A DNA stretch of 64,000 nt from a bacterium (GTDB taxonomy: Bacteria > Patescibacteriota > Dojkabacteria > SC72), in assembly GCA_021463465.1 (NCBI GenBank), contig JAJTYH010000003.1, positions 147,549-211,548 of the forward strand. Reading direction: 5' to 3'. The notes below the pieces were generated by a model. It searched no databases. It was not told the DNA's origin and saw only the letters and a list, made by a program, of their open reading frames with translations. Position 1 is the stretch's first letter. Every line of letters starts with the position of its first letter. Both the position numbers and the translations under genes were made by a program. Positions 16,109 through 62,560 of this stretch are shown one piece after another.

Positions 16109-16109
16109 G

Positions 16110-23751: not shown

Positions 23752-24127
23752 ACTGTTGTTTATAGGTATCCTTGTAACTGCGGTTATTACATCTGGACTC
23801 TTTGCTTACTATTTCGTTTATTTACCGAATAAAACTACTAGTAATGTAGGGGGGTGTAGTCCTACTAAATTCCGCCAGGAAAAGAATGGAGAAGAGTACT
23901 TTCTCTTTTGGACAACTCTTGATGAATGCACAGGATATGTCAAATATGGCAATACAGCGGAAGCCTTTCCTTATCTGGCAGTCGATCAGCAGGGAGTGGT
24001 CAAAGTCAGGGAGCATGAAGTAAAACTCTCAGGAATAACCAAAGGCAGCACGTACTATTTTGTAATCTTTTCGAACGAGAAAAGTTTTGGGAATGAAGGC
24101 AGACCTCTAATCCTTAGTTTCGAATAG
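23738..24127 (+). CDS. Small TM-anchored protein with an FN3/purple-acid-phosphatase-N-like domain
   Basis: TM anchor, then 'YFLFWTTLDECTGYVKYG...HEVKLSGITKGSTYYFVIFS'. The same W-T-[DT] / H-x-V / Y-x-F pattern occurs at the N-termini of the 1150-aa and 612-aa proteins further downstream. Confidence 0.4.
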   Translation: MKTNKLLFIGILVTAVITSGLFAYYFVYLPNKTTSNVGGCSPTKFRQEKNGEEYFLFWTTLDECTGYVKYGNTAEAFPYLAVDQQGVVKVREHEVKLSGITKGSTYYFVIFSNEKSFGNEGRPLILSFE

Positions 24128-28415: not shown

Positions 28416-28430
28416 TTTCTTTACGGATTA

Positions 28431-48648: not shown

Positions 48649-51600
48649 ATGTTTAAAGTACAAGTTGGATGGGAAAACGTCAGAATTGTAGGGAGGTACT
48701 TTTTAGCCTTGCTATTACTCATTTCAATTGGTCTTATTGGTTACAAGGCGTATTATATGCTAACCAATGTCCCAAAAGAAGTTAGAGTTACGAATTTGAC
48801 AGGTACTTCTGCTACTGTTTCCTGGTATACAGACAAACCCGATAAGGGGATGGTACTTGTCAAAGAGAAAGACTCTTTTATCCCTTTGCTAAAGAAGTTC
48901 GGAGCTGTAATCGGTTATGATGACAGAGATTTGGCTTTCGCTAGAGCTTCCTTGGCGGATGAGATTACTAGGAAAGCTGCAGAGGGTTTGGATTCTAATG
49001 ATGATGCAACACTTCCCGATGGTTTCCTTGAATCGGTAAAGGTAACCAAAAAGGGTAAATACTATGTACATCATGTAACCGTGTCAGGACTAAAAGAAGA
49101 TACGAACTATTCGTTCAGAGTTGGTAATGGCCTTATCTTTTGGAATTTAAATCAGAAGAGACAGGAAACGCAAGAGTTTGAGGTTAGAGCTGTTGATAAG
49201 TTCTCTTTTAAAACGTTGCTAGAGCTAGAAGAGGTACCCACCCCGAATCCTGCTTATGGGAAATTGTACTCCTTGGCGAGGGATAAAGATGGCTACTTGA
49301 TGTCAAATCCTTCCACAGATGCAATACTGTTTTCGCTTGCAATTAAAAAAAACTCAGACGAGACGTCACTACCACTCTCAAGCGTTACAAATAAAGATGG
49401 TGGATGGTTAATTGAGAAGACTGCTTTCAGAGATAGTAGTGGCAACGTTTTAGAGGGTATGAAAGACGGCGAGGATACGTTACGCATAGTGGGGCAGTTT
49501 GAGAACCTCTCTCCAAGTGAAGCGAAGGATTTAACATGGGGAGTAAATGACTCTCCTGCAGATGCAATTTATGGAAATAGCGATGAAGAAGCTAAAGTTA
49601 GAGGTAGCTTATTGGATAAAGTTAAATTTAGCTTAAGTGATTCGTTTAAAAGCCGTACTAATAACCTAACCCTGAACGCTTTTAAGGTAAATGCAGGAGT
49701 TGATAAGCCAAGTGATTGTGATCCCAATAAAGAAGTGTGGAATTCAACGAAAAAAAGGTGTGACCCTAAATCGGCTGTGACTGGGGGCACTGATTCTAAT
49801 GGTTGTGATTTGGATTCTGAGTATTGGAACGAAGAGAAAGAAACATGTTTAGCTAAACCTGTAACTCCACCAATAGTAGTTCCACCCGTTGGTGGCATTG
49901 ATAAGCCAAGTGATTGTGATCCCAAAGAAGAAGTATGGAATAAAAATAAAAAAGTGTGCGACCCTATTGAAGATGATTCAGGGTCTACCCCACCAGCAGT
50001 TACGCCCCCGACAGTGAACCCTCAAAATGCGGATGGACCAGAAGATTGCGCTGCTATTGCTGGATCAGAATGGAATGCTCAGCAACAAGCTTGTATTAAA
50101 ACAGACAAAAAGGATAAGTATGATAAATGTACTGGCAGATTCGCCAGGACTTGTGATGAGGAACCTCTTGGGGGTAATTCAACAAACTGTTATTGTTCAA
50201 TTGGTGGAGGAGAATACCTCCCTCTTCGAGGTGTTGATTGTAGACCAGCCGCTTGTGCAAATAAAAGGAATAATGATGTGGTATGCTCTGATGGTAAATG
50301 TGAATCAAGGGTTAAAATTGACGCAAAAGGAAACGAAGTCCTGTGTGGTAGTGATTATACAACCCCTGGTTGTGGTTTTCCTGGAGATGGGAAGTGTCCT
50401 GAAGCTACGCCATATTACAATAGCGCGACAAATGCTTGCCAAACTAGCGCTCCTTCTTCTCAGCCTGAGATAACGGTAGGGGGCGAGCCTTCGGATTTGA
50501 TTCTTTGTGTATACAAAATTAATGGTAGTAGTGTAAAAGCTAGGAAAACTAAAGCTGAATGTGATGCTTTGAATGGGAGTAATGGTAGTGGTACTGTTCG
50601 ATGTGGTTTCGGTCAAAGACCTGATGGTAAAGGTGGATGTGAATGTCACCCTGCCTTCGTAGGAAATGCAAATAGTCCTGGAGGTTGTCAGATGCCTGGT
50701 AGAACTGATCAAGAGCTTAAAGATAAGAGATGTGTAGATATGGAAGGTAGGGCGCTATCGTGCGGTAGTGTAAGATATTTTGATGAACAAACTGGCCGTT
50801 ACGAAACTGTGAATTGTGGGAAGAATGGAAGTGTATCTTGTAATAGTTCGAATGAAGAGTGTATTCAAACGTTTAGGGAAAGTGCTCAGGCAGTTGCAGG
50901 TGTGTGTTCTCCCAAAGGTATTGCTGTAGGTATTTTATCGAATTACGATGGGAATAATAAAGGTCTGGTGGAGTTTGGAAATGACTGTTATCTTAAAATT
51001 GATTCAAAAGGTCAAGTCATTGATAGAACAGTTCTCACCACTCATTATAATATTGAATATCAACGGAAGATTGAACAATCAAAAGATTGGGTACAAGTAC
51101 CAATGAAATACTGTACTTCAGGACCAGTAAAGGAAGACTATCCTGGTGATATCGGAAGTAGCCTCAATAATGATGGGAAAAACAACTTTACATTACTAGG
51201 TGAGGTTAGTGCTGCTGACGAAATTGCAGTAACAAATAATACAAATTACATGATTGTTTTCCCTGAAAGTGGTAAATACAACGTTAATATAGGTGGAAGT
51301 AAATTTGAAAACATAACTGTAAATGCTGACAATGATTACTTCTTCTTTGATGACCGTAATGGAGTGAAAGGGTATCAAAGTCCTTCTGATTTGAACAATC
51401 CAAAACCAAATGAAGACTTAATGCTCTCTGTGCTAGGTGCTAAGGTTACCTTAAGTACAACTACAAAAAATCAGTCTCTGAAACTAAGTAAAGGAATGAA
51501 TATGATTTCATTTAACTACCTACCGTCTTCAAGTGAGAAAGAGTCTTTGAAGGCTTCTGAGTTTTTAGATATATCTAATAGCTCAGGACTTAAAGTTAGC

Positions 51601-52101
51601 AAGATAACATATTTTGAAGGTGGAAAATGGGTTGGCGGTATGTCAGCTATTTCTGGGGATAAAAAAGTTAAGGCTGGAAACGATTTTGCTCTAGTCCCCG
51701 GCAAAGGCTACTTGATTATTTCTTTGAAGGATACAACCGTCCAAGTTCCTGGATTTAGTATTAAAAACTCTGTACCAGTAGCACTTTCTTCTGGTTGGAA
51801 TTTAATAGGTATAAACGGATATCAAAAAACCTTCACCGCTAACTCTTTAATTGATTCAGTAAATGGTCTGTCGGGGCTAAAAGCTGATAACGTAACTTGG
51901 TGGCCTACATCTAAAGGTCGTTACGAATCTTTCCAGAAATCTGAAGGGGTTGAATATGGTTTCGATTTCCCAATTCTTAAAAATATGGGATACTTTGTTA
52001 GGTTGAGTGACTTTGAGCCGAAGGATTCATCTGCCAAGTCTGTTCTCTGGAATCCAGGAAGTTCGTCGCACGGCAAAGCTGGTTCGACCAAGGCCAATTA
52101 A
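48649..52101 (+). CDS. Giant (1150 aa) Cys-rich surface protein: N-terminal TM anchor, FN3-like domain, repeated CDP-containing modules, C-terminal beta-rich region
   Basis: TM 'YFLALLLLISIGLIGY'. FN3-like 'VRVTNLTGTSATVSWYTDKP...YYVHHVTVSGLKEDTNYSFRVG'. Two copies of 'IDKPSDCDPxxEVWNxxKKxCDP'. About 50 Cys residues in total. Confidence 0.55.
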   Translation: MFKVQVGWENVRIVGRYFLALLLLISIGLIGYKAYYMLTNVPKEVRVTNLTGTSATVSWYTDKPDKGMVLVKEKDSFIPLLKKFGAVIGYDDRDLAFARASLADEITRKAAEGLDSNDDATLPDGFLESVKVTKKGKYYVHHVTVSGLKEDTNYSFRVGNGLIFWNLNQKRQETQEFEVRAVDKFSFKTLLELEEVPTPNPAYGKLYSLARDKDGYLMSNPSTDAILFSLAIKKNSDETSLPLSSVTNKDGGWLIEKTAFRDSSGNVLEGMKDGEDTLRIVGQFENLSPSEAKDLTWGVNDSPADAIYGNSDEEAKVRGSLLDKVKFSLSDSFKSRTNNLTLNAFKVNAGVDKPSDCDPNKEVWNSTKKRCDPKSAVTGGTDSNGCDLDSEYWNEEKETCLAKPVTPPIVVPPVGGIDKPSDCDPKEEVWNKNKKVCDPIEDDSGSTPPAVTPPTVNPQNADGPEDCAAIAGSEWNAQQQACIKTDKKDKYDKCTGRFARTCDEEPLGGNSTNCYCSIGGGEYLPLRGVDCRPAACANKRNNDVVCSDGKCESRVKIDAKGNEVLCGSDYTTPGCGFPGDGKCPEATPYYNSATNACQTSAPSSQPEITVGGEPSDLILCVYKINGSSVKARKTKAECDALNGSNGSGTVRCGFGQRPDGKGGCECHPAFVGNANSPGGCQMPGRTDQELKDKRCVDMEGRALSCGSVRYFDEQTGRYETVNCGKNGSVSCNSSNEECIQTFRESAQAVAGVCSPKGIAVGILSNYDGNNKGLVEFGNDCYLKIDSKGQVIDRTVLTTHYNIEYQRKIEQSKDWVQVPMKYCTSGPVKEDYPGDIGSSLNNDGKNNFTLLGEVSAADEIAVTNNTNYMIVFPESGKYNVNIGGSKFENITVNADNDYFFFDDRNGVKGYQSPSDLNNPKPNEDLMLSVLGAKVTLSTTTKNQSLKLSKGMNMISFNYLPSSSEKESLKASEFLDISNSSGLKVSKITYFEGGKWVGGMSAISGDKKVKAGNDFALVPGKGYLIISLKDTTVQVPGFSIKNSVPVALSSGWNLIGINGYQKTFTANSLIDSVNGLSGLKADNVTWWPTSKGRYESFQKSEGVEYGFDFPILKNMGYFVRLSDFEPKDSSAKSVLWNPGSSSHGKAGSTKAN
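49691..49958 (+). repeat. Intragenic direct repeat, two copies of about 70 nt spaced 198 nt apart. The 27-nt core TTGATAAGCCAAGTGATTGTGATCCCA is identical at 49700-49726 and 49898-49924.
   Basis: Read directly from the sequence. The repeat encodes the duplicated 'DKPSDCDP' module. Confidence 0.6.
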
Positions 52102-52117
52102 TTTGAGGTAAAAAAAT

Positions 52118-52420
52118 ATGAGTGAAATACCAACATGGTACTGGATGACAATAATCGGTTTCTTAAGCGTGCTTTTGGGCATGATTTTGTACTACGTAGC
52201 AATGCTGGTTAAAGAGACAACTGCTACAATGTCTGAAGTGAGAGCAACTCTAGTTGATTCCAGAAAACTTGTTCAAAATGCCAATCAAATCGTGGAGGAT
52301 GTTCAAGAAACTGTGAGTAATGTTAAACACACGATTAATCAAGTGAATGAAGCTGTCCTCGAACCTGTCAAACAGGTGGGTGATACAGTCCGCTCACTTC
52401 TTGGTATGTTCAAAGGTTGA
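52118..52420 (+). CDS. Small membrane protein, DUF948-like (TM followed by a coiled-coil)
   Basis: 'WYWMTIIGFLSVLLGMILYYVAMLV', then a heptad-like polar region. This architecture resembles the DUF948/YtxG family. Confidence 0.35.
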   Translation: MSEIPTWYWMTIIGFLSVLLGMILYYVAMLVKETTATMSEVRATLVDSRKLVQNANQIVEDVQETVSNVKHTINQVNEAVLEPVKQVGDTVRSLLGMFKG

Positions 52421-52424
52421 AGCT

Positions 52425-52562
52425 CTATTTAAGCTGATTTCCGAAGTAGATTAGTAGTATGGATATTGCTGTTGCTGCGATAAGGATTGCAAGTGGTTCT
52501 AGGTAGTATCTCATCCGAACTGGAACATTAAACACTAATTCTTTTTCAGCTGGTTTTTCCAT
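52425..52562 (-). CDS. Possible unannotated 45-aa single-TM protein (MEKPAEKELVFNVPVRMRYYLEPLAILIAATAISILLIYFGNQLK)
   Basis: An ORF found by hand in the 196-nt gap. 'AGGAT' lies 8 nt upstream of the ATG. It is below the size cutoff of the ORF track. Confidence 0.2.
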   Translation of the reverse strand: MEKPAEKELVFNVPVRMRYYLEPLAILIAATAISILLIYFGNQLK

Positions 52563-52616
52563 CTTAATATCCTACAAATGTTTGTATAACTAATCAAGAT
52601 TAGTTATATTATTACC

Positions 52617-54455
52617 ATGTATGTGACTCCCCGACAAAGAAGAAGATACTTCTGGACCAGTATAATTTTGATACTTGGGTTACCTATAACTGCATTTGCA
52701 ACTGTAATGGCAATAAGGTACTTCACAGGAGCCTCAGGGAGCGATACACCACAAAACGTAGTAATTTCCAATCTTACTTCAAATTCAGTTTCCATCTCAT
52801 GGAGTACAGACTCAAAAGCTACAGGGGCGATAACAACGAATGCTGGAAAAGGAGATAGCACCCCCTTTGTTGATATTAGAGGCACGGATCGCCGCAAAAC
52901 TCATCATGTTGATATTGTAGACTTAGATCCATCAAAAGATTATAACTTCGTTATTCTTTCAAATAATCAAAGATACTCAGATGAAGAGGGTAAAACCTTT
53001 AAATTTCGCACTTCTCCCGTGACATCTCAAACCCCTGTTCCTTCACCTGTATATGGATTGATAGAAGGGGATAACAAGGAGGATGTATTAGTTTATGTAA
53101 CCCTGAATGGAAGGTCTAGTGTATATCCTGCTTCATCTGCAGCTACTGGCTCTGGAAAGTGGATTATTGATTTATCAGCGCTCCGTGACCCAAGCTCAAA
53201 TGAACTTATCAAGGTTGATGACAATACTGAAATCACTGTTACGGCAAAGGGAACCGATACTTTAGGGGGAACACTTTCAGGTACATATGGTGAGCTTGTT
53301 GATGACGAGGGGCAAATGTTTACCCCTCTACAATTAAGTGATGTGCCTCTTGATTCGCTTTTTGCTGCAATTCCAAGGTCGGCTCAGATTGCGTTGGTAG
53401 CCCAGTCTTCTAACCCTCCGCCTAAAGATAATCCTCCTGCCAACGAAGAACCTGAAGAAGAGGAGCCCGAGGAGGAAGAGCAACTTCCAGGGGGAGAGAT
53501 AGCATGGGGTGTTATCCCAGGTACCAATACTTCAAGTGGTGGTAGCAGTGCAGTTACTGGTGCTGATTCGGTACAAATAACTAATATAACTGATTCTGGA
53601 TTTACCGTTGTATGGTTAAGTGGAACTGCTTCTGAGGGTTCCGTAAATTACGGGACAACAGTGTCTGATCTTGGAGAGAATGCTCTTGATGAAAGAGATA
53701 GTGCTGTTAGTAAAGGTGCATACACAGCGCATAGTGTGAAGCTGTTAAGACTTTCACCTGAAACTAAATATTTCTTTGAGATAAAGGATGGGAACTCAAT
53801 TATTAATGATGGAGGAAAAGCCTTCACAGCAACAACTTTTAAAACCTTGGAAACCCCCCCTGAATTCAAAACGGTTGCGGGCAAGTTTACGGGTCCATCT
53901 GATCCTTCAGATGCGGTGGTTGTTGTCGGGGTAAGCGATGAAGATGATTCAGGAAGTAGTGGAAGCTCTAGTTTGAGTTCAACAATTCCTGATGATGGCG
54001 GTAGTTGGGTCATCACCTTGGGAGATTTGCGAGACAGCTCAGGCGCAGAGTACTTCACTTTCAGTGATGATGATACTGTTGAAGCTAATGTTCTTTCAAT
54101 TTCTAGAGGAGAAACAGAAAGCGCGAAAGTCAAGGATGTTATAGATGCTGGAATTAATTTGACTGCTTCCGCAGGAGCAAAGCGTCGGATAGTTAAAGTG
54201 TCAGCTTTGGCTAGTTACGGTATTACTATTGGCAACTTAGCTTCTGTAAACTTGGGTGCAGGTGGAGGTGGGGGAAGTAGTGAGTTAAATGTTACTGGAT
54301 CAACTACCCCCGAAACAGCCTTATCTACGCCTTTAATAGTTACACTTGTAATTGGAATGATTACCTTTTTAGTTGGAGTTTTTACATATATCAAGTCACA
54401 AGCTCGGTATAGGGTAAAAGAGAGTAAAAGTCATATGGTTTCTAGTGTTATTTAG
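52617..54455 (+). CDS. Surface protein (612 aa): N-terminal TM, FN3/PAP-N-like domain, acidic linker, C-terminal TPETAL-TM-basic tail
   Basis: 'VVISNLTSNSVSISWSTDSKATG...HHVDIVDLDPSKDYNFVI'. Linker 'PANEEPEEEEPEEEEQLPG'. C-terminus 'TTPETALSTPLIVTLVIGMITFLVGVFTYIKSQARYRVKESK'. Confidence 0.5.
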   Translation: MYVTPRQRRRYFWTSIILILGLPITAFATVMAIRYFTGASGSDTPQNVVISNLTSNSVSISWSTDSKATGAITTNAGKGDSTPFVDIRGTDRRKTHHVDIVDLDPSKDYNFVILSNNQRYSDEEGKTFKFRTSPVTSQTPVPSPVYGLIEGDNKEDVLVYVTLNGRSSVYPASSAATGSGKWIIDLSALRDPSSNELIKVDDNTEITVTAKGTDTLGGTLSGTYGELVDDEGQMFTPLQLSDVPLDSLFAAIPRSAQIALVAQSSNPPPKDNPPANEEPEEEEPEEEEQLPGGEIAWGVIPGTNTSSGGSSAVTGADSVQITNITDSGFTVVWLSGTASEGSVNYGTTVSDLGENALDERDSAVSKGAYTAHSVKLLRLSPETKYFFEIKDGNSIINDGGKAFTATTFKTLETPPEFKTVAGKFTGPSDPSDAVVVVGVSDEDDSGSSGSSSLSSTIPDDGGSWVITLGDLRDSSGAEYFTFSDDDTVEANVLSISRGETESAKVKDVIDAGINLTASAGAKRRIVKVSALASYGITIGNLASVNLGAGGGGGSSELNVTGSTTPETALSTPLIVTLVIGMITFLVGVFTYIKSQARYRVKESKSHMVSSVI

Positions 54456-54479
54456 TAGTATTTTGTTGTACAATCCAAA

Positions 54480-55847
54480 ATGAATATGGATCGTAATGAC
54501 AAATACAAGCGCTATTCAGGATTGATGCTGTTTTTATTGCTTATTGTCGGAATTTCATCCGCTATAATTGTTCCGCATTTTAACTTTGTTTCTAAGGCTC
54601 AGGGATTGTCGCAGGATTTAGCTCAAACTCCTCCGGTTACATCTGTTGAAAGCATTGAGACAGGAGAGGTGCAAGCGGCAACAACTGAAGAACAAAAAGC
54701 AAGTAAAGGGTTTGGTAAATGTATGAATGGGAGTGTATGTGATTATGTTCAAGAATTAACTTATCAACCTGTCTGTTCAATTAACGATGCAGGTGGAAGT
54801 ATGACTGGTGGAGATGCTAATGAAGGTAAGAAGTTTGTCTCAGTAAGAATGAATGCTAAGGTCGAGCCTTTTATAATAACGGTTCCTCAGGTACTACTGC
54901 AAGGGAGTAAATATGTAGAAGATGATCGTAAATTAATAAGTAAAGATTATCCTGTATATCGCGACTCACAGCACGTAATTCTCGATGATGAAGCTAGGAG
55001 AACATGTGCACCAGGTGTTGATTGCGCGGATTATGATGAGCTTTCAAAGCGTCCTGATGTACCTTTTTCGCTTCACGCTTTTATGGAGGTTAAGAATGCT
55101 GATGAAGGGGGATTTGGAGGTGATGGGAAAGCAGTAATTTACTCTTTAGATTCATTGAGATCTGCTTGTCCGAAAGTCCAAAAGGCAAAGGCCAACCCTA
55201 AAAAAGCAGGCTTTTATGCTGCTAAATTGGATGTTAAGCATCAGGCACCAGGGGTGCATGAAACCTGGAGAGATTTTGGAGGAGTGGAATGTTACAGAAC
55301 TAACCCAAATGGAATGCATTTACAGGAAGCAAAGAACTTTGTGAGCTGCGTTACAGAGGTTAAGCCGACAGATTTTGTTGTCAGCGCTGTATATAATATT
55401 GCCCAGTGGCTTGAGTGCTTAGATGGTGGGGCGGAATGCGAAGAGTATAGAGTTTTTGCAATTAGGTTAGACGCAATGTTTGGAGGCGTATTTAAATGCG
55501 CTGGTGTTGATTGCGAGATTCGTTTCTTTGATTTTGAGAAACTAAAGACCACCGCACCTGGTGATGCTCAGGAGATGATTCCTGATTATATAGATAAGTC
55601 TTTAGTTAATCCGATTCGTCCAGTTACTGAGCCTTATTACCTTACAACTCCATGTAAAATTAGGATTAATAAATGGGGGATTCATAATGTACCTTGTCTT
55701 TGGGATATCTCTCCATATCAGAGGCATTATGAAGTACAAAGATCTGCGTTAATGCCTTTAGAGCCTACGATGCCATTGACATTTGATGACTATTGGAATA
55801 ATGGGGTTGCTCCAGAGCTTAAAAAAAGATCACTATCATGTGTATAA
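54480..55847 (+). CDS. Secreted or TM-anchored Cys-rich protein (455 aa)
   Basis: TM 'LMLFLLLIVGISSAIIV', then a domain with more than 20 Cys residues. Confidence 0.45.
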   Translation: MNMDRNDKYKRYSGLMLFLLLIVGISSAIIVPHFNFVSKAQGLSQDLAQTPPVTSVESIETGEVQAATTEEQKASKGFGKCMNGSVCDYVQELTYQPVCSINDAGGSMTGGDANEGKKFVSVRMNAKVEPFIITVPQVLLQGSKYVEDDRKLISKDYPVYRDSQHVILDDEARRTCAPGVDCADYDELSKRPDVPFSLHAFMEVKNADEGGFGGDGKAVIYSLDSLRSACPKVQKAKANPKKAGFYAAKLDVKHQAPGVHETWRDFGGVECYRTNPNGMHLQEAKNFVSCVTEVKPTDFVVSAVYNIAQWLECLDGGAECEEYRVFAIRLDAMFGGVFKCAGVDCEIRFFDFEKLKTTAPGDAQEMIPDYIDKSLVNPIRPVTEPYYLTTPCKIRINKWGIHNVPCLWDISPYQRHYEVQRSALMPLEPTMPLTFDDYWNNGVAPELKKRSLSCV

Positions 55848-55875
55848 TACATAACTTAAATTTTATTTAACCGGT

Positions 55876-57306
55876 ATGTTAGTAGAAATTGCAAAATTTA
55901 TTAAAAAGGTAAGTAGCGAGCGAAAATGGGTAAACTATTTAGCTGGAATCCTTACAGTATTCATGTTCTTTAGTGTAATGAATATCTATGCTCAAGAAGC
56001 GGGTGCAACTATTAAGCTCGACCCAGTGGAAGGGTATAGAGCTGAAACGGCACTTACTAAAAATGGTACAGGTGATACGTCGTATAACAGTCAGACAACT
56101 ACAATGAACGTTATATTAGGAGCTCTAAATGGAGCACTGCAGAATATGGCTCCACAGTTGCTTAGTAACTTTGCAGCAATAGAGTCTGATCCGGCTGTTC
56201 CTGCATATGCAAAGATGGGTGCATTAGGTTTAGCTGGCGAAGGGGTTAATGCAATGATGAATAACTATAACGGCGTAAACATAGTTAATTATATGGCAAG
56301 CGAATGGGTACCCGGGTATGATAAATCTACAAGTGTTTATGCCGCTACAGATGGTTATAGTTATTTAGATGAGAGCAATGTTGATGTGTTGTGGGATAGA
56401 ATAAGGCTCATCACTTACGTGCTTTTCGTTGTTGTTTTAATAGTTGCTGGCTTTATGATTATGTTTCGACAGAAAATCGGTGGGCAACTTGCTGTTAGTA
56501 TCTTTAATACTCTTCCAAATGTAATCGTTGCACTAATACTAGTTACCTTCAGTTTCGCTATTGTAGGGCTAATGCTTAATGTGGGCGTTATGATAATCAA
56601 CGTGATGACATCGGTATTAGGTGTTGCTGACCCACTCACCATTGAGAATCCATTTAGTCTGTTTGGAACTGCTATGAATGGAGAGCTGTTGGGTGGTGGG
56701 ACGACAGCTGCTTTAGTTATTGGGCCGGCAATAATTGCAGGGTTAATTGCTGCAGTTACAGCTACAGGTGGTGCGGCTCTTCCTGCGGTTGTTGCTGCGA
56801 CTGTAACCGTAATAGTAATTGCAGTTATTCTTACGGCAATAGTTATTTATGCTTCAATTCGTGTTTACATAACCCTATTGATTGCATATTTAGGGATTAT
56901 AATAAATACAGTTATGGCGCCTATATTTTTAGCCATCTCTGCCTTCCCTGGTCAAAGTGGTATGGCATCAGATTGGTTCAGAAGAGTTTTAAAAGCCGTT
57001 CTAACTTTTCCAATTGTCTATTTTTTCTTAAACCTTGGTATGTTTATAATCAATGGAGATATTAATCTTGGTTTCCCGTCAGGAATAATGAGTGGGGATT
57101 TCACCCAGGTTGACACTAATGGAAGCCCAGTTGGAGGATTTATAAAAGCAGTATTAGTATTGTTACTCTTTTTCTTTGCTGCTGATGCACCTAAGATTTT
57201 GGATGACTTCTTACCATCTAATGAAGGTAAGGGTGTTGGTAGTGCAATTGAAGGTGCGAAGAAAGGTCTGTCCAAGATTCCTGTTGTTGGTTCCCTATTG
57301 GGTTAA
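55876..57306 (+). CDS. Polytopic membrane protein, VirB6/TrbL-like: signal peptide, extracytoplasmic domain of about 150 aa, then 5-6 TM helices
   Basis: 'LAGILTVFMFFSVMNIYAQEAGA' signal. The later TM helices are rich in Gly/Ala/Ile/Val ('TAALVIGPAIIAGLIAAVTATGGAALPAVVAATVTVIVIAVILTAIVIYA'). Confidence 0.45.
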   Translation: MLVEIAKFIKKVSSERKWVNYLAGILTVFMFFSVMNIYAQEAGATIKLDPVEGYRAETALTKNGTGDTSYNSQTTTMNVILGALNGALQNMAPQLLSNFAAIESDPAVPAYAKMGALGLAGEGVNAMMNNYNGVNIVNYMASEWVPGYDKSTSVYAATDGYSYLDESNVDVLWDRIRLITYVLFVVVLIVAGFMIMFRQKIGGQLAVSIFNTLPNVIVALILVTFSFAIVGLMLNVGVMIINVMTSVLGVADPLTIENPFSLFGTAMNGELLGGGTTAALVIGPAIIAGLIAAVTATGGAALPAVVAATVTVIVIAVILTAIVIYASIRVYITLLIAYLGIIINTVMAPIFLAISAFPGQSGMASDWFRRVLKAVLTFPIVYFFLNLGMFIINGDINLGFPSGIMSGDFTQVDTNGSPVGGFIKAVLVLLLFFFAADAPKILDDFLPSNEGKGVGSAIEGAKKGLSKIPVVGSLLG

Positions 57307-57321
57307 TGGAGCAATAATTAA

Positions 57322-60303
57322 ATGGCGAAGTCAAGAAAACCAAAAGGATTTTCAGATCCACTTGATTCCATATTTGGCTTTATTTTTACTGGCGCTAAAT
57401 CTAAACCAGTAAAGACAAGGCCAACAAGATTTACAGGGGTTAATGCAACCGAGATGTTAAGCCAAGGACTTGCTGAAATTGCAAGTAAACCTGCTAACTA
57501 TGTTAGTTCTGCTCTCATGGAACCCGTTAACCAGTTGGCAAATGGGGTGAAGATTTCAGAGTTTCATCTAGATCGATTTGATGACTCGTTGCTAAAGAAT
57601 CTTGATAACTCAGCAGGTCGTTTTAGAATCCGAGGTGGGGATTTAGCTAAGTTCATGAAGGACCCAAATAAATTTGTTGACTCGGTTTTTCAAGGTGCGG
57701 CTGAGGAACGTAAATGGGCTAGGTATCTTAATATTGGACGAGGGATGGATACCGCGCTGCTCACGGCCTGGGCGAAGAAACAAGGTTTTAGCTCTAAAGA
57801 TGCATTGCAAATAGGTTTGGCAACAAGTAATTTTTTGGGTCCTGACCAAACGCTTGAAGCTAAAAAGAAACAAGCTCAGAACTCAGTTCTAAGATATCTT
57901 GATAGTAGGAGTGGTACATCTAAAGTATCTAAAACGATTTCCAGTCAGACACTTGAAGCATTAGAAAAATATAAAGGAGCTGGGTTTAGGAGTGAGGCAG
58001 AGCTTGAAAAAGTTTTACGTACTGTCCCTGGACTTGCCACTAGAAGTGATTTCTCAACGATAGTTACTGAGATTTTTGATGGCTATGCTGACGAAGCTTA
58101 TGGTAAGAAGGATGCAACTACGGGAGAGAGAAAAGGCGGTAAATGGAATAGTATAGGTGGTGGCTGGTTAACGGATGGCAAATTAAACCGCAATGGTTAC
58201 ATCTCAGTTTTGAATGATAACTATTTACAAAGAGCGAGCCTACTTGATGCGACTGATCCACATCAAGCTCTAGAACAAAGACGGTTGTTGGCGGCAAGGC
58301 AGTCATTATCAACGCTTTTAAGGCTTAAGGGCCCCAGTTTTAATCCGATTGAGGCAAGTGCAACTTTTGGTAGCCAAATCGATAGTATTAATAAAGAAAT
58401 TGAAAAAATGAAAGCTAGGGCTGGAACAGCGGGATTAAACGCCAGACAAAAGATTTACGCATCAAATTTAGAAGGCATTGCAAAACAGATTGAAGCAGCA
58501 ATTGCTGAAGGAGATAAGGCTGCGCAAAGAAAAATGCAACGTAGATGGTTTGGTTTTCAACCTGTTGGTGATTTTTCTGCCTATAGGAAAGCTATGGTTG
58601 CGGATGTTGATTTAGAGATCGAGAGGGCTGGTTGGCAGGCGATATCCCCAGGTCTTTCAGCGTCCAAAAAGGAATACTACAAGAATCTTATAGCATCTTT
58701 AATGCAAAGAAAGAAAGAGTTGAGATCTGCTCCTCTCAGAGATTGGCGAATAATAATTGCTGATACTGTTGGGGCATATAGGTCTATAGATGGAAATATT
58801 AGACAGGGAGGATTAGCTGGTGGAATAATTTCTGGATCGATTTTTACAAATGATTACTTTAGTCCAGCACAAGGTCAAAAGTTTATTGTCAAAAGATTTG
58901 AGAAATCAACATTTGGAAAAGTATGGGAAAACGAAGTTCCAGTAATGAGGGGTGATATTAATCAGAATTATGCATCAATGACAAGCTTGTATTATTTTAC
59001 ACCTGGATCACTTGCCAAAACATTCTTTTTTAATGGTGAAGGTTTTTCTAGATTGCTATTAAGGCAAAGAGTTAATAATCTTAACTCTATTTTGACTCCT
59101 TCTGCATTAAGTAGTCTTAATGGCTTTTTAAACGCATCACCTTCACTCCTAGCTTCGTTAACAAGTGCTGGTTGGGCAAAAGGAGGGAAAGTCAATTTAG
59201 ATGTAGGCTCACTTGTTTACGATTTACCTGGCTTTATGAGCGCCGTTGAGAAAGGTGGAGGTGCTAAAGCACTAGGTCCATTATGGGGGCAACTTACTAA
59301 GGTCTATAATACTGATCAAAACGGTCCAGTGGCTCAAGCACTTCGATTTTTTGGGACACCTCAGAGGAACTTAGTTAAAGTTGCTACATGGTATGAGGCA
59401 ACATTTCGAAAACCTTTCGGCCAATTTTTACATACAAAGGTATACCCTAAAATTTTAGGTAGGAAGTTTGCGGAAAAGATTGCCCTTACAGGGAGTATTA
59501 AAGCCGCTATTTCAGCCATTGTTACTGATGCCTTGGTTGCGTTGGGTGTATCAATTGGTGGACCAATTGGTGCTGTAGCTGCATTTATAGTGACTTTTGT
59601 AGTTGAGGATGTTTTATTAAAAATAGCTAAACCATTAGTTAAACTTTTTTTCCTCGTTTTATGGTCTACGGTATTAGTTATAGTAGCCTTTATAGGTTTT
59701 GTTCTTATAATTTGGCCATCGACTTACCCACTCCCTCAGCAGCATAAACCACCCCTTGATGCGATGGCATGTGGTGGTGGAAACCCTTTTAGTGGTCTTT
59801 ATAATTTCCAAACCGTCCAAGCAAGCAATATCCCAGATGCGCCACCAGGTTCAACATGCCCTATTCTTAGCCCATCAATGTTATGTTCTCAAGGCTCGGG
59901 CCCAGGTTCTTCAAGCTATCACTCTGCAAGGCAAAGTTTGGATATAAGTGCCAGAGGTTTAGCTGATACTGTTTGGTATGCGCCTACCAACGGTACTGTA
60001 GTATCATTTTCTGCGAGAAATATATGTAATGACGGCGCTGACTATGGAGGAGCACTAGTATTTAGAGATAGTGCCGGCACCACATATACTCTTTTACATG
60101 TAAAGGCACTTGCTTCGGGTCCTGTAAGTAAAGGTAAACCAGTAGCAATAATTCAAACGGATTTAATACCTAGTGATTGTTGGACGGGTCCGCACTTCCA
60201 CCTTGACGTACAGACTGGAGGAGGGTTTGTAAATACAGAGACTTGGTATAGGGAGAAGTTAAAATGTAATATCACTAAGGCTGCACCGAGCTGTAATGGA
60301 TAA
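57322..60303 (+). CDS. Giant (993 aa) protein: hydrophilic N-terminal region of about 700 aa, 2-3 TM helices, C-terminal M23/LytM metallopeptidase domain
   Basis: TM segments 'AAISAIVTDALVALGVSIGGPIGAVAAFIVTFVV' and 'FFLVLWSTVLVIVAFIGFVLIIW'. The C-terminal domain carries 'HSARQSLD' (HxxxD), 'GGALVFRDSAGTTYTLLHVKAL' and 'GPHFHLDVQ' (HxH), the M23 zinc-ligand pattern. Confidence 0.6.
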   Translation: MAKSRKPKGFSDPLDSIFGFIFTGAKSKPVKTRPTRFTGVNATEMLSQGLAEIASKPANYVSSALMEPVNQLANGVKISEFHLDRFDDSLLKNLDNSAGRFRIRGGDLAKFMKDPNKFVDSVFQGAAEERKWARYLNIGRGMDTALLTAWAKKQGFSSKDALQIGLATSNFLGPDQTLEAKKKQAQNSVLRYLDSRSGTSKVSKTISSQTLEALEKYKGAGFRSEAELEKVLRTVPGLATRSDFSTIVTEIFDGYADEAYGKKDATTGERKGGKWNSIGGGWLTDGKLNRNGYISVLNDNYLQRASLLDATDPHQALEQRRLLAARQSLSTLLRLKGPSFNPIEASATFGSQIDSINKEIEKMKARAGTAGLNARQKIYASNLEGIAKQIEAAIAEGDKAAQRKMQRRWFGFQPVGDFSAYRKAMVADVDLEIERAGWQAISPGLSASKKEYYKNLIASLMQRKKELRSAPLRDWRIIIADTVGAYRSIDGNIRQGGLAGGIISGSIFTNDYFSPAQGQKFIVKRFEKSTFGKVWENEVPVMRGDINQNYASMTSLYYFTPGSLAKTFFFNGEGFSRLLLRQRVNNLNSILTPSALSSLNGFLNASPSLLASLTSAGWAKGGKVNLDVGSLVYDLPGFMSAVEKGGGAKALGPLWGQLTKVYNTDQNGPVAQALRFFGTPQRNLVKVATWYEATFRKPFGQFLHTKVYPKILGRKFAEKIALTGSIKAAISAIVTDALVALGVSIGGPIGAVAAFIVTFVVEDVLLKIAKPLVKLFFLVLWSTVLVIVAFIGFVLIIWPSTYPLPQQHKPPLDAMACGGGNPFSGLYNFQTVQASNIPDAPPGSTCPILSPSMLCSQGSGPGSSSYHSARQSLDISARGLADTVWYAPTNGTVVSFSARNICNDGADYGGALVFRDSAGTTYTLLHVKALASGPVSKGKPVAIIQTDLIPSDCWTGPHFHLDVQTGGGFVNTETWYREKLKCNITKAAPSCNG

Positions 60304-61345
60304 ACTATTTGAGTTTGTAAAAAACAATAAACAAATTACGATTATTACTGGTGGGATTCTAGTGCTAATTGTACTTGTAATATTTACAATTCTACCTGAA
60401 GGGACTAAAGGTGGTGTTGCGTTAATAGAACAACCACTCTACTTCTATAAATCTAAAAGGATAAGTATACCCGTCAAACTTGCCCAAGATACGAAGGTGA
60501 ACACCAAGCCTTGGAATATTTACCGTATTAAAAATGATAATCAGAATATAAAGGTTGAAGGTATAATAACCAAACTAAATATTGATAATCCTTCTAAAAA
60601 GGTAAGCGGGGGTATCTTGTATGAATGGAGTAATAAGGATGGAGATTTGGTTCAGTACGATGTTAAAACTCAAACAATGAGTTTAGTAATGCAAAATAGG
60701 ATAGAGGTTTTTCCTGAGTTAGGAGTTGCAAGTGATTCTCAGCTAATGGGGCTTTTGACCGATTTTATCCATAAATATGTTGATAACTCGTATGAGTATA
60801 AAGAAGTAAATGTAGTGAAGTTAGGAAATGGATATAAGATTGAAGGTAGAAGATTGGTTAATGGTGTGGCGCTCCAGACTCCTGGTTTAAGCAAGTATCA
60901 TGATTATATTGAGTTAGATAATCAATACAACTTGAAATTAGCGAGGGTTGTGCTAGTTGAACTTGAGAGTGAAATTGCTGATAAAATAAAACTTATTAAA
61001 CCGAATGAACTTGGGAGCGTAGTCTCAAGAGACGCCTATCCAAAGGAATTTAATCAAGACTTCCCGCAAGGATTGGATATTGATAAGGGTAAAAGTGATG
61101 ATTCAAATCAGGACAATCTGGGAGTAGAGATCCCAAAGGTTAGCAATATTACTGTTGAGTCTATGGAAGTTGTATATCTATTTAGTAATGTGGATCAGCA
61201 GTTTCTTGTTCCAGTTTATAGGCTAGAAGGCAAAAGCAGAGTGGTAATTGCTGGGAGGGAGTTTGAACTTAACAGTGTTGTACATGCAAGTGCAATTGAT
61301 CCTGACCATGTATATATACCCTCTAATATACCTTTCGCTCCTTAA
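60296..61345 (+). CDS. TM-anchored extracytoplasmic protein (349 aa), possibly VirB8-like
   Basis: TM 'ITIITGGILVLIVLVIFTIL', then a soluble domain of about 310 aa. It overlaps the upstream gene by 8 nt. Confidence 0.4.
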   Translation: MDKLFEFVKNNKQITIITGGILVLIVLVIFTILPEGTKGGVALIEQPLYFYKSKRISIPVKLAQDTKVNTKPWNIYRIKNDNQNIKVEGIITKLNIDNPSKKVSGGILYEWSNKDGDLVQYDVKTQTMSLVMQNRIEVFPELGVASDSQLMGLLTDFIHKYVDNSYEYKEVNVVKLGNGYKIEGRRLVNGVALQTPGLSKYHDYIELDNQYNLKLARVVLVELESEIADKIKLIKPNELGSVVSRDAYPKEFNQDFPQGLDIDKGKSDDSNQDNLGVEIPKVSNITVESMEVVYLFSNVDQQFLVPVYRLEGKSRVVIAGREFELNSVVHASAIDPDHVYIPSNIPFAP

Positions 61346-61372
61346 GGTATACAAAGTTTTACAAATACTGCT

Positions 61373-62560
61373 ATGATTATCAGTATGAAAAAATTGTTGT
61401 TGGCTATACTATTTTCTTTAATGTTGACTTTAGCTTTTGAGCAGGTGAGTAAGGCGTATACTTTAAGAAGTAGGGAGGAAATGGGGTTTGATGAGAGTAT
61501 TGCAGATCAAAGCCAGACCACAATCGCAGCTCCTTCGAAAATTTTTATTACTCGGGTACTAACTGCCAACGAGGAATATGAGGCTCAAACTGAAATATGG
61601 GTTAAATCATTATATTACTACTCAATTACCCGTTTAGGTTTTCTTGACTTACCATACACCTATTTAGTTGATCGGGATGGTAAGGTTTATGAAGGGAGAG
61701 CTGGTGGTATTTATACTGATCCGGAGACAGTACAAACAGGTGGGCAATTGGTAATAGGTTATCTTTCAAATAGCGAGGATGTAACGGCTTTAGCTAGTCA
61801 ATCCCTACGTCAATTGATTACAGAGATTTCGTATACATACGGTGTGACAAGGTCTGAAGTCCAGATAGGGAAATTAGATATTGCAGAAGGAGGAGAGGTA
61901 GCTAAGACTATTCTCTTAACTGATGGAAGCAGCTTTACTTCAGAGATTGAAACACTGCTTAACAGCTTTACCTATTCCGAAGTAGAGCACATTAAATATC
62001 GTGCTGCGGTTAAATCAGTTACATACGCCAAAACGGTAGAAGCTTCAGAAAAGTTTACTGTTGAAGCTACTCTTATAAATACGAATGATTTCCCCTGGTT
62101 TACTAACAACAATTATATTTATGTTTCTACTCGTAATAAACAAGAATCCCCTTTTGCAGTTAACGGAGTGTGGGATAGCTTTAGTAAACCGGTGGCAATT
62201 ACAGATAAGGTGGTTTTGCCAGGAAAGGAGTTGGTGGTAACCTTTGATATGCAGGCTATGTTACTGCCTGGCAAATACACTGCACGCTTCAATTTGATGA
62301 AGCTTCCTAATGTTCAATTCGCTGGGTCCAACTTTGATGTTGCTTTTGAGATTAAAAAAGGTAGTGCAAAGCTGGTGAGAATCATTGGAATACCATCCTT
62401 GAATGTCCGTGAGTGTATCGGTTCCAATTGTAAGGTTCTTACACAGGTTGCCGAAAATCAGGTGCTTATAATGTTAGAGAAGAATGCGGGTTGGTACAAA
62501 ATTAGATATTCCGAAAAAGCGTCCGGATGGGTGTACGGACAGTACGTTGAGCAGTTATAA
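61373..62560 (+). CDS. Secreted cell-wall-binding protein: amidase_2/PGRP-like domain plus C-terminal SH3b domain
   Basis: Signal peptide. 'PYTYLVDRDGKVYEGRAGGIYTDPE...QLVIGYLSNSED' resembles the N-acetylmuramoyl-L-alanine amidase_2 core. C-terminal 'LNVRECIGSNCKVLTQVAENQVLIMLEKNAGWYKIRYSEKASGWVYGQYV' is an SH3b-type domain. Confidence 0.5.
   Translation: MIISMKKLLLAILFSLMLTLAFEQVSKAYTLRSREEMGFDESIADQSQTTIAAPSKIFITRVLTANEEYEAQTEIWVKSLYYYSITRLGFLDLPYTYLVDRDGKVYEGRAGGIYTDPETVQTGGQLVIGYLSNSEDVTALASQSLRQLITEISYTYGVTRSEVQIGKLDIAEGGEVAKTILLTDGSSFTSEIETLLNSFTYSEVEHIKYRAAVKSVTYAKTVEASEKFTVEATLINTNDFPWFTNNNYIYVSTRNKQESPFAVNGVWDSFSKPVAITDKVVLPGKELVVTFDMQAMLLPGKYTARFNLMKLPNVQFAGSNFDVAFEIKKGSAKLVRIIGIPSLNVRECIGSNCKVLTQVAENQVLIMLEKNAGWYKIRYSEKASGWVYGQYVEQL

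What the first reader, a model, noticed from the sequence alone, without database searches (positions are those of the whole stretch)
48649..62560. Co-directional envelope locus: VirB6-like channel protein + giant M23 peptidase + TM-anchored protein + amidase/SH3b + Cys-rich surface proteins
From 52617 to 62560 eight plus-strand genes are separated by 15-28 nt or overlap, which reads as a single operon. The 1150-aa gene just upstream may belong to it.

The gene products are:
- two paralogous FN3-headed surface proteins
- a Cys-rich secreted protein
- a signal-peptide-bearing polytopic membrane protein whose architecture matches VirB6/TrbL/TcpH
- a 993-aa protein with a cytoplasmic region of about 700 aa, a TM hairpin and an extracellular M23 peptidase
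- a TM-anchored protein whose size and topology are compatible with VirB8/TcpC-like proteins
- an amidase_2-like plus SH3b wall-binding protein

Gene order and domain logic mirror the channel/hydrolase core of Gram-positive conjugative T4SSs (VirB6-like, hydrolase, VirB8-like). However, no ATPase, coupling protein or relaxase is present here, and the only VirB4 is about 40 kb away.

I cannot match this to a described system. It could be the missing membrane half of the VirB4 module, or a separate wall-remodelling/attachment machine of an epibiotic cell.
Basis: partly seen in the sequence, partly recalled or inferred. Interest (0 to 1): 0.8.

Follow-up and report, generated by a model that had tools for sequence, protein, structure and literature searches.

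The report
Split-off membrane half of CPR T4SS
This conserved eight-gene operon of an ultrasmall Dojkabacteria (CPR) bacterium most likely encodes the membrane channel, wall-cutting and surface parts of the type IV secretion system that such bacteria are thought to use on their hosts, sitting about 40 kb from the system's ATPase genes.

Summary
The locus is real. Eight co-directional genes (48649-62560) lie 15-28 nt apart or overlap, apart from one 196-nt gap. Their order is conserved in about 60 species-level Dojkabacteria genomes.

The 476-aa protein is VirB6-like:
- In other CPR lineages its homologues lie inside complete T4SS clusters (pilin array, VirB6-like, PrgI, TrsD-like, VirB4, M23 protein, TM-anchored protein).
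- The window's own VirB4, TrsD-like and PrgI-like genes at 13-17 kb are homologues of those cluster genes.

The 993-aa protein always follows the VirB6-like gene. Its N-terminal region and TM cluster are conserved, while its extracellular head is exchangeable (M23, CHAP, M23+CHAP or HExxH). This is the architecture of the essential SEML1_0007 of the Saccharibacteria T4SS.

The 349-aa protein is YycI/YycH/PepSY-like, not VirB8-like. The "amidase" is a PGRP-fold domain without zinc ligands, so probably a wall binder.

Verdict: this is the membrane and wall half of a split CPR T4SS, a new variant of a known system. Physical coupling to VirB4 is inferred, not shown.

The parts
48649..52101 (+). 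1150-aa surface protein. It has an N-terminal TM anchor, an FN3/Pur_ac_phosph_N head and a long region with 34 cysteines. It is a candidate adhesin.
   Evidence: Pfam Pur_ac_phosph_N 1.5e-9. TM segments and Cys count. Paralogous to the head of the 612-aa protein. Found upstream of the core in many related loci.
52118..52420 (+). 100-aa protein with one TM helix and a coiled-coil tail (weakly DUF948-like). Its role is unknown.
   Evidence: Pfam DUF948 5.4e-5, below the curated cutoff. One TM segment. Conserved at this position in 57 loci.
52617..54455 (+). 612-aa surface protein with two FN3-type domains and a C-terminal TPETA + TM + basic tail, which looks like a sortase sorting signal.
   Evidence: Pfam fn3 2.5e-10 and Pur_ac_phosph_N 1.8e-14. 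Close orthologues carry [TI]P[EK]T[AG] + TM tails. A sortase gene is present in the window.
54480..55847 (+). 455-aa secreted cysteine-rich protein, always encoded immediately upstream of the VirB6-like gene. It is the fastest-evolving member. It is a positional analogue of VirB5 or of the Cys-rich proteins upstream of VirB6 in other CPR T4SS clusters (inference only).
   Evidence: 15 Cys and an N-terminal hydrophobic segment. Nine invariant Cys across 35 orthologues. No Pfam or PDB relatives. Found in 70 loci directly upstream of the 476-aa gene. L090 and L091 have 1034- and 947-aa Cys-rich secreted proteins at the same position.
55876..57306 (+). 476-aa VirB6-like polytopic membrane protein, with a signal peptide, a helical ectodomain of about 130 aa and about 6-7 TM helices.
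57322..60303 (+). 993-aa protein with an N-terminal region of about 720 aa lacking TM segments (inferred cytoplasmic), a TM cluster at 720-805 and an extracellular disulfide-rich M23-like metallopeptidase head at about 810-993.
   Evidence: TM map. H867, D874, H926, H958 and H960 are conserved in 42-46 of 46 heads and align with a Pfam-recognised M23 domain of a T4SS-cluster protein. The head is swapped for HExxH, CHAP or M23+CHAP in orthologues. Always adjacent to the VirB6-like gene. Same architecture as the essential SEML1_0007.
60296..61345 (+). 349-aa bitopic protein with a YycI/YycH/YpeB(PepSY)-like ectodomain. Its start overlaps the end of the 993-aa gene by 8 nt. It is the proposed partner or regulator of the peptidase head.
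61373..62560 (+). 395-aa secreted protein with a PGRP/amidase_2-fold domain lacking zinc ligands, an Ig-like domain and an SH3b domain. It is probably a non-catalytic peptidoglycan binder.
   Evidence: SH3_3 1.8e-10, Amidase_2 0.03. PGRP chains in PDB at E 0.006-0.02. No His/His/Cys zinc ligands in five orthologues. Conserved at the 3' end of the locus in 56 loci.
13090..15489 (-). VirB4-like ATPase, the motor of the same T4SS, encoded 40 kb from the VirB6-like gene.
   Evidence: Pfam TraG P-loop 8.2e-29 and AAA_10. 55-57% identical to the VirB4 of the L090 and L091 clusters.
15482..16108 (-). 208-aa TrsD/TraC-like protein, a component of the CPR T4SS.
   Evidence: No Pfam hit on its own. 44-47% identical to the PF26593 TraC-like proteins that precede VirB4 in L090 and L091.
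16110..17075 (-). 321-aa PrgI/VirB3-like membrane protein.
   Evidence: Pfam PrgI 7.7e-6. Homologous over its full length to the PrgI proteins of L090 and L091.
35178..35984 (-). Sortase, the probable anchoring enzyme for the 612-aa FN3 protein. It is an accessory, not part of the operon.
   Evidence: Pfam Sortase 4.2e-21. TLxTC motif.

Best explanation
[quoted passage not shown] In Dojkabacteria this half has been separated from the VirB3/TrsD/VirB4 motor genes.

Proposed working (inferred unless marked shown):
- The 476-aa VirB6-like protein forms the membrane platform or channel. Its fold and its T4SS context in relatives are shown.
- The 993-aa protein is its obligate partner. The invariant adjacency is shown.
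- The N-terminal ~720 aa and the three TM helices of the 993-aa protein act as a scaffold on the cytoplasmic face. There they could meet VirB4.
- The extracellular M23 head of the 993-aa protein cuts peptidoglycan so that the machine can span a wall. An intact catalytic set and exchangeable hydrolase heads are shown. The substrate is unknown.
- The translationally coupled 349-aa YycI/PepSY-like protein binds or restrains that head.
- The 395-aa PGRP-like/SH3b protein holds the complex to peptidoglycan.
- The fast-evolving Cys-rich 455-aa protein sits on the outer face of VirB6, as a VirB5-like position.
- The FN3-headed proteins, one of them sortase-anchored, mediate contact with the host cell.

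Power would come from VirB4, encoded at 13-15.5 kb. No relaxase or coupling protein was seen among the window proteins I scanned. As proposed for Saccharibacteria, the system probably moves proteins or nutrients rather than performing conjugation.

For: 2. Context in relatives. Homologues at 31-32% identity lie inside complete clusters in L090 and L091. The order is pilin array, Cys-rich secreted protein, 476-aa homologue, PrgI, TraC-like, VirB4, M23 protein (L090; cut by the contig end in L091), N-anchored protein (L090 only). In L005-L007 they lie beside VirB2-like pilin arrays.

3. Same system in the window. The window's own VirB4, TrsD-like and PrgI-like proteins are 55-57%, 44-47% and 22-25% identical to those cluster genes.

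4. M23 head. It matches the L090 cluster's M23 domain at 3.8e-9, and its catalytic residues are conserved. The profile of the 349-aa family aligns over 285 columns with the gene that follows M23 in L090 (P 1.8e-4).

5. Saccharibacteria parallel. The essential S. epibionticum gene downstream of virB4 (SEML1_0007, 1113 aa) has the same architecture: a long unannotated N-part plus a C-terminal wall-peptidase fold (PMC10633639).

6. Synteny. The gene order is conserved in about 60 Dojkabacteria loci. The 476/993 pair is seen in 82 of the 90 sequences examined (89 loci plus the window). The other eight are non-Dojkabacteria CPR loci or are cut short by a contig end.

7. Weak sequence bridges. Three of 73 distant family members hit Pfam TrbL (best 5.4e-4).

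8. Literature. Quinonero-Coronel et al. note that VirB6, VirB8 and VirB1 are often undetected near virB4 in CPR.
Against: - In none of 89 loci does VirB4 lie within 10 kb of the Dojkabacteria-type module. Linkage in this lineage therefore rests on homology with other lineages, not on local synteny.
- Co-occurrence of the two loci across whole genomes could not be tested.
- The VirB6 fold match is moderate: TM-scores 0.29/0.41 and Foldseek E only 0.03. The window protein itself has no Pfam TrbL hit, and its family profile finds no PDB sequence.
- The N-terminal domain of the 993-aa protein is not detectably homologous to that of the L090 M23 protein or to anything in Pfam or PDB.
- No VirB2-like pilin gene was found in the 64-kb window or within 10 kb in the Dojkabacteria loci.
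- Some genomes carry a second, headless 476/993 pair far from any T4SS gene.
Confidence: 0.7

Rival explanations
1. The operon is an autonomous envelope machine for wall remodelling or host attachment. It descends from T4SS parts but now works without VirB4, for example as a passive VirB6-type pore plus a wall-cutting and adhesion module at the epibiont-host contact.
For: VirB4 is never within 10 kb of the module in 89 loci. No pilins lie nearby. Minimal headless 476/993 pairs sit among housekeeping genes. The locus has its own adhesin-like, wall-binding and hydrolase genes.
Against: The same genome keeps an intact VirB4/TrsD/PrgI set that is 55-57% (VirB4) and 44-47% (TrsD-like) identical to that of the contiguous clusters, although PrgI is only 22-25% identical, and no other polytopic VirB6 candidate lies next to it in the window. 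In other lineages the homologous genes are interleaved with VirB4. Known VirB6 proteins act only within ATPase-driven T4SSs (established knowledge).
Confidence: 0.17
2. It is the channel core of a classical Gram-positive conjugation system (VirB6-like, hydrolase, VirB8-like) that transfers DNA, as the gene order suggested to the first reader.
For: The VirB6-like fold. VirB6-hydrolase adjacency occurs in MPF_FATA elements (established knowledge). CPR VirB4 nests within MPF_FATA (PMC12102498).
Against: The 349-aa protein is not VirB8-like. No relaxase or coupling protein appeared in the Pfam scans, which covered most window ORFs of 100 aa or more but not all. The locus is chromosomal, flanked by housekeeping genes that differ between genomes, and appears vertically inherited across about 60 species. 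Relaxases are rare in CPR T4SS genomes.
Confidence: 0.05
3. The genes are unrelated housekeeping envelope proteins that merely lie next to one another.
For: Most have no Pfam family. The promoter and terminator scans are uninformative.
Against: The order, orientation and tight spacing, including a conserved gene overlap, persist at 15-50% protein identity while the flanking genes change. The presence of the 349-aa gene tracks the presence of a hydrolase head on the 993-aa gene.
Confidence: 0.03

Closest known systems
Patescibacteria (CPR) T4SS, e.g. Southlakia epibionticum SEML1_0004-0019 (Wang et al. 2023, PMC10633639; Quinonero-Coronel et al. 2025, PMC12102498)
   Same: Both are chromosomal, lack a relaxase and are monoderm MPF_FATA-like systems. 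Both have VirB4, a TrsD-like protein, PrgI/VirB3 and a VirB6-like polytopic protein. Both have a very large protein whose only recognisable part is a C-terminal wall-peptidase fold (SEML1_0007 versus the 993-aa protein). Small exported accessory proteins follow in both. The L090 and L091 clusters link the two by direct homology.
   Different: Here the system is split into two loci 33-40 kb apart. No VirB2-like pilin array is seen in the window or within 10 kb of the Dojkabacteria modules. FN3-headed anchored proteins and a small TM/coiled-coil protein occupy the position upstream of the Cys-rich protein and VirB6. The hydrolase head is M23 (or CHAP or HExxH in relatives) rather than M15B-like with a separate lysozyme. 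A PGRP-like/SH3b protein closes the operon.
R388 TrwI / Agrobacterium VirB6 (Pfam TrbL, PF04610)
   Same: TrwI is the best structural match of the 476-aa model in two searches. Both are polytopic with an extracytoplasmic helical N-terminal part.
   Different: Sequence identity is 9-14% in the structural alignments. The window protein has no Pfam TrbL hit. The organism is a monoderm. The 476-aa protein has a signal peptide, and some family members have a TM1-TM2 hairpin that resembles VirB2 pilins in profile searches.
Gram-positive T4SS wall hydrolases (PrgK of pCF10, TraG of pIP501, CwlT of ICEBs1)
   Same: They are membrane-associated, modular peptidoglycan hydrolases encoded beside VirB6 or VirB4. 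They use LytM/M23, CHAP and related modules (established knowledge). The same modules occur in orthologues of the 993-aa protein.
   Different: The 993-aa protein has an N-terminal region of 600-800 aa before the TM cluster with no known relatives. Headless paralogues exist. This suggests a structural role beyond hydrolysis.
YycH/YycI (WalK regulators) and YpeB (PepSY partner of the lytic enzyme SleB) of Bacillus; PDB 5coz
   Different: There is no sequence similarity. No WalK-type kinase is involved here. A regulatory role is inferred, not tested.
VirB8 / TcpC / PrgL (NTF2-like T4SS subunits)
   Same: Bitopic topology, and a position after the hydrolase gene.

Membership tests
VirB6/TrbL (476-aa protein) | Polytopic membrane protein with at least 5 TM helices and an extracytoplasmic domain | tested here: met
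   Hydropathy map and AF2 model: a signal-peptide-like N-terminus, a helical ectodomain at about 40-165 and long TM helices from 169 onward.
VirB6/TrbL (476-aa protein) | Fold similar to a solved VirB6 | tested here: met
   [not shown]
VirB6/TrbL (476-aa protein) | Significant match to the family's sequence model (Pfam PF04610) | tested here: not met
   There is no Pfam hit for the window protein. Only 1 of 61 and 3 of 73 relatives hit TrbL weakly (best 5.4e-4).
VirB6/TrbL (476-aa protein) | Encoded within a T4SS gene cluster that contains VirB4 | tested here: inconclusive
   This is met for homologues in L090 and L091. It is not met locally: VirB4 is 40 kb away and is never within 10 kb in 89 loci.
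VirB8/TcpC NTF2-like (349-aa protein) | Bitopic protein with an N-terminal TM helix | tested here: met
   One TM segment at 11-44.
VirB8/TcpC NTF2-like (349-aa protein) | NTF2-like extracytoplasmic domain as the best structural match | tested here: not met
   [not shown]
Peptidase M23 (head of the 993-aa protein) | Match to Pfam PF01551 above the gathering score | tested here: not met
   13.5 bits against a cutoff of 28.7 (E 0.087). An orthologue head scores 18.8 bits. The family profile finds no PDB sequence.
Peptidase M23 (head of the 993-aa protein) | Zinc-binding and catalytic residues (H...D, catalytic H, HxH) | tested here: met
   H867, D874, H926, H958 and H960 are conserved in 42-46 of 46 heads. 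They align with the Pfam-recognised M23 domain of the L090 protein (HMM 3.8e-9). The H-to-D spacing is 7 rather than the usual 4.
Amidase_2 / PGRP (395-aa protein) | Fold-level sequence similarity to the family | tested here: inconclusive
   Pfam E 0.03, below the cutoff. More than ten PGRP chains in PDB match at E 0.006-0.1 over the core motif.
Amidase_2 / PGRP (395-aa protein) | Zinc ligands (His, His, Cys/Asp) needed for amidase activity | tested here: not met
   The expected positions read ITR/ISR/ITQ and YG(V/I)(T/S/P/E)(R/A) in five orthologues. No conserved His or Cys is present.
CPR MPF_FATA-like T4SS (whole system) | VirB4 of the Patescibacteria type together with TrsD-like and PrgI/VirB3 proteins | tested here: met
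   They lie at window 13090-17075 on the - strand.
CPR MPF_FATA-like T4SS (whole system) | Array of VirB2-like pilins (PF18895) | tested here: not met
   No pilin-like ORF is found in the 64-kb window at E<=10, and none lies within 10 kb in the Dojkabacteria loci. The rest of the genome could not be searched.
Conjugative T4SS | Relaxase and VirD4-type coupling protein | tested here: not met
   Neither appeared in the Pfam scans, which covered most but not all window ORFs of 100 aa or more. The rest of the genome was not searched.

The most novel reading that the evidence does not exclude
Dojkabacteria may run a T4SS variant without a pilin array near the channel genes; whether pilin genes lie elsewhere in the genome was not tested. 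In this reading, a VirB6-like protein and an obligate scaffold-peptidase partner with host-matched, exchangeable heads (M23, CHAP, HExxH) form the machine. Together with a fast-evolving Cys-rich tip protein, a PGRP-like wall binder and sortase-anchored FN3 adhesins, they would breach the host's wall rather than the cell's own. The result would be a feeding conduit. Head swapping would then track host wall chemistry.
Probability: 0.2. Interest if true: 0.8.

Novelty: new variant of a known kind. Interest (0 to 1): 0.55.

Why it matters
The T4SS is essential for epibiotic growth in the one Patescibacterium tested genetically, and its function is unknown. Surveys centred on virB4 report that VirB6, VirB8 and the wall hydrolase are often missing.

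This locus contributes four things:
- It shows where those parts are in one whole class, in a separate and strongly conserved operon.
- It points to a large, Pfam-less VirB6-like family of about 5000 clusters at 50% identity.
- It defines a conserved VirB6 partner with swappable wall-hydrolase heads, together with a PepSY/YycI-like companion.
- It adds candidate host-contact proteins.

Together these give concrete targets for structure prediction, cryo-ET and genetics of how ultrasmall bacteria tap their hosts.

Tried and rejected
- Sequence profiles of the 993-, 476-, 349- and 455-aa families, and of the N-domain of the 993-aa protein, found nothing credible among PDB sequences.
- Pfam and NCBIfam gave no family for the 455-, 476- and 349-aa proteins. 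Pfam gave none for the N-domain of the 993-aa protein.
- The afdb50 fold library was unavailable.
- An active amidase for the 395-aa protein was rejected because the zinc ligands are missing.
- The HMM search for VirB4 near the module in 89 loci found none.
- The search for pilin genes in the window and in the Dojkabacteria loci found none.
- hhalign found no homology between the N-domain of the 993-aa protein and the L090 885-aa or 744-aa proteins. It also found none between the 455-aa family and the Cys-rich proteins of L090 and L091.
- The promoter and terminator scans were uninformative.
- The literature searches for 5coz/EUBREC_2869 returned nothing.
- I considered a phage tape-measure-like reading of the 993-aa protein (a long helical region, TM segments and an M23 head). 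I set it aside because the gene sits in a conserved chromosomal operon with VirB6 and no phage genes are nearby.


Full report
**Organism and setting**

The window has about 39% G+C. Its proteins match MAG proteins labelled 'bacterium IT417_...' exactly. Their nearest named relatives are Candidatus Dojkabacteria (WS6), a class of Patescibacteria/CPR.

The locus lies between housekeeping genes. Upstream are PNPase, and RsmB and RsmE on the minus strand. Downstream is a UvrD/PcrA helicase gene.

**Observation**

Eight plus-strand ORFs fill 48649-62560. Gaps between them are 16, 196, 24, 28, 15, -8 and 27 nt.

The domain calls are mostly right:
- FN3/Pur_ac_phosph_N heads are present on the 1150- and 612-aa proteins. 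The two heads are paralogous.
- Cysteine counts are 34 and 15 for the 1150- and 455-aa proteins.
- The 476-aa protein is a signal-peptide-bearing polytopic protein.
- The 993-aa protein has no TM segment for about 720 residues, then a TM cluster, then an M23-like C-terminus.
- The 349-aa protein is N-anchored.
- The 395-aa protein has SH3b and a weak amidase_2/PGRP signal.

The simple promoter and terminator scans gave nothing above shuffled sequence. 'Operon' therefore rests on spacing and synteny.

**Synteny**

Relatives at 40-52% identity of the 993-aa protein carry the whole locus, including its flanks. So does a complete 1.04-Mb Dojkabacteria genome.

A scan of one genome per GTDB species returned at least 562 loci, of which the best 80 were kept. 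Iterated HMMs on the 89 loci then held gave these results:
- The order FN3 protein, 100-aa, FN3 protein, 455-aa, 476-aa, 993-aa, 349-aa, 395-aa recurs in about 60 loci.
- The 476/993 pair is seen in 82 of the 90 sequences examined (89 loci plus the window). The other eight are non-Dojkabacteria CPR loci or are cut short by a contig end.
- A distant genome keeps only the four-gene core (455-like, 476, 993-like, 349-like) between queA and tgt.
- Flanking genes differ between genomes. This is a vertically inherited chromosomal module, not a mobile element.

**The 476-aa protein is VirB6-like**

- The AF2 model, built from 61 sequences, has pLDDT 79.6.
- Foldseek against 350,542 PDB chains put five TrwI/VirB6 chains of the R388 T4SS first (best E 0.033, probability 1.00).
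- An exhaustive profile search found 5050 clusters at 50% identity at E<=1e-3.
- Pfam sees almost nothing in this family. TrbL is hit in 3 of 73 distant members (best 5.4e-4). TrbC/VirB2 is hit in 7 of 61 members.

**Context that links it to the T4SS**

More distant homologues lie directly downstream of arrays of five to six PF18895 T4SS pilin genes (L005-L007).

In L090 and L091 the homologue sits inside a full cluster. The order is:
- six or seven pilin genes;
- a Cys-rich secreted protein of 947-1034 aa;
- the 476-aa homologue;
- a tail-anchored protein on the opposite strand;
- PrgI;
- a TraC-like/TrsD protein;
- VirB4;
- in L090, an 885-aa protein with a hydrophilic N-part of about 470 aa, a Gly-rich TM cluster and a Pfam M23 domain (in L091 the gene at this position is cut by the contig end);
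- in L090, an N-anchored protein of more than 331 aa.

The window's own VirB4 (13090-15489), 208-aa protein (15482-16108) and PrgI-like protein (16110-17075) are 55-57%, 44-47% and 22-25% identical to those cluster proteins. The VirB6-like proteins are 31-32% identical.

Relative to L090, the Dojkabacteria arrangement therefore looks like the same cluster with the VirB3-TrsD-VirB4 block moved elsewhere.

**The 993-aa protein**

Its M23-like head keeps H867, D874, H926, H958 and H960 in 42-46 of 46 orthologues, plus six conserved cysteines. It aligns with the Pfam-recognised M23 domain of L090. Pfam itself scores it below threshold.

In otherwise syntenic loci the head is replaced:
- by a Cys-rich HExxH domain of about 200 aa in 20 loci (L009 and L035 are the same contig);
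- by CHAP (L064, 5.5e-6);
- by M23 plus CHAP (L032, CHAP 2.4e-9).

Five paralogous second copies end right after the TM cluster. In the three with enough downstream sequence, no 349- or 395-aa gene follows, and no 455-aa gene was detected beside any of the five.

The N-terminal domain has no relatives in Pfam or among PDB sequences. The protein thus looks like a structural partner of VirB6 that carries an exchangeable wall hydrolase.

The essential SEML1_0007 of S. epibionticum lies just downstream of virB4. It is 1113 aa, and only residues 951-1105 are recognisable, as a DD-peptidase/M15B-M23-like fold. This is the same plan (PMC10633639). The review of CPR T4SSs also notes essential peptidase and lysozyme genes downstream of virB4.

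**The 349-aa protein is not VirB8-like**

- VirB8-family chains score 4.9-6.3 over 50-71 residues.
- Its start overlaps the end of the 993-aa gene by 8 nt here and by 8-20 nt in relatives.
- It is missing where the hydrolase head is missing.
- Its family profile aligns end to end with the gene that follows M23 in L090 (hhalign P 1.8e-4).

By analogy with YpeB-SleB and with PepSY propeptides (established knowledge), I infer that it is a partner or restrainer of the peptidase head.

**The other genes**

- 395-aa protein. It has the PGRP core motif but none of the zinc ligands in five orthologues. With its Ig-like and SH3b domains, it is best read as a peptidoglycan binder.
- 455-aa protein. It has nine invariant cysteines and no known relatives. 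It diverges fastest: phmmer cannot link it to the L008 orthologue, although every other gene of the locus links easily. It always precedes the VirB6-like gene. That is the place held by Cys-rich secreted proteins in L090 and L091, and by virB5 in classical operons. This analogy is positional only.
- 612-aa protein. It ends in TPETA + TM + a basic tail, and close orthologues end in TPKTA, TPKTG, IPKTA or IPKTG. A sortase gene lies at 35178-35984.

**Model and rivals**

The best-supported reading (about 0.7) is that this is the membrane and wall half of a split CPR T4SS that works with the VirB4 block 33-40 kb away.

The main rival (about 0.17) is that the module has become autonomous. Three facts favour it: VirB4 is never within 10 kb in 89 loci, pilins are absent nearby, and headless pairs exist.

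A classical conjugation channel is unlikely. Relaxase and coupling proteins did not appear in the Pfam scans, which covered most but not all window ORFs of 100 aa or more. The locus is also chromosomal and stably inherited.

**Novelty**

The CPR T4SS is already described (PMC10633639, PMC12102498, PMC12857230). In the library I could search, the following are not described:
- the split architecture in Dojkabacteria;
- the eight-gene operon with FN3, Cys-rich and PGRP-like accessories;
- the head-swapping scaffold-peptidase with its YycI/PepSY-like companion;
- the size of this Pfam-less VirB6-like family.

This is a new variant of a known kind and is of moderate interest.

Noticed in passing
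window 35178-35984 (-), 54300-54455 (+), 24114-25970 (-): A sortase gene (Pfam 4.2e-21) lies in the window. Two surface proteins end in [ST]PETAL followed by a TM helix and a basic tail: the 612-aa FN3 protein and a 618-aa DUF11-like protein. This looks like an LPXTG-type sorting signal with T or S in place of L. Close orthologues of the 612-aa protein show TPKTA, TPKTG or IPKTG.
   Followed up: partly
window 13090-17075 (-): A three-gene T4SS island (PrgI-like, TrsD/TraC-like, VirB4) sits among housekeeping genes. Its VirB4 (799 aa) is about 160-190 aa longer than its 606-641-aa homologues in L090 and L091, with extensions at both ends. The PrgI-like protein has a long C-terminal extracellular part that aligns with the L091 PrgI protein carrying a weak CarboxypepD_reg hit.
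   Followed up: partly
[not shown]
   Followed up: partly
L072:9710-13201, L075:1943-5473, L079:754-4531, L074, L086: Some Dojkabacteria genomes carry a second, minimal copy. It consists of a VirB6-like gene plus a 993-like gene that ends right after the TM cluster, with no hydrolase head. In the three loci with enough flanking sequence (L072, L075, L079) it is surrounded by housekeeping genes and lacks the 349-, 395- and 455-aa genes.
   Followed up: partly
L009:13344-14012, L016:13515-14120, L064:13065-14525, L032:13573-14835: The extracellular head of the 993-aa family is exchanged between otherwise syntenic loci. It is M23-like in 45 loci plus the window, a Cys-rich HExxH domain without a Pfam family in 20 loci (L009 and L035 are the same contig), and CHAP or M23+CHAP in a few.
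   Followed up: yes
window 23326-24127 (+) and 24114-25970 (-): Two small N-anchored proteins (141 and 129 aa) lie here. The second is picked up by the FN3-head HMM of the locus. They sit next to a 618-aa surface protein with a DUF11-like domain and the sorting signal. This may be a further small surface-protein cluster.
   Followed up: no
window 26979-29423 (-), 31685-33796 (-): Other envelope genes lie between the two T4SS loci: a LytR_cpsA_psr protein, YceG (MltG-like) and a 703-aa protein with bacterial Ig-like domains.
   Followed up: no
window 52421-52616: This 196-nt stretch is the only long intergenic gap inside the locus. It separates the 1150-aa/100-aa pair from the six tightly packed genes and could hold an internal promoter. 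The consensus scan placed nothing in it.
   Followed up: partly
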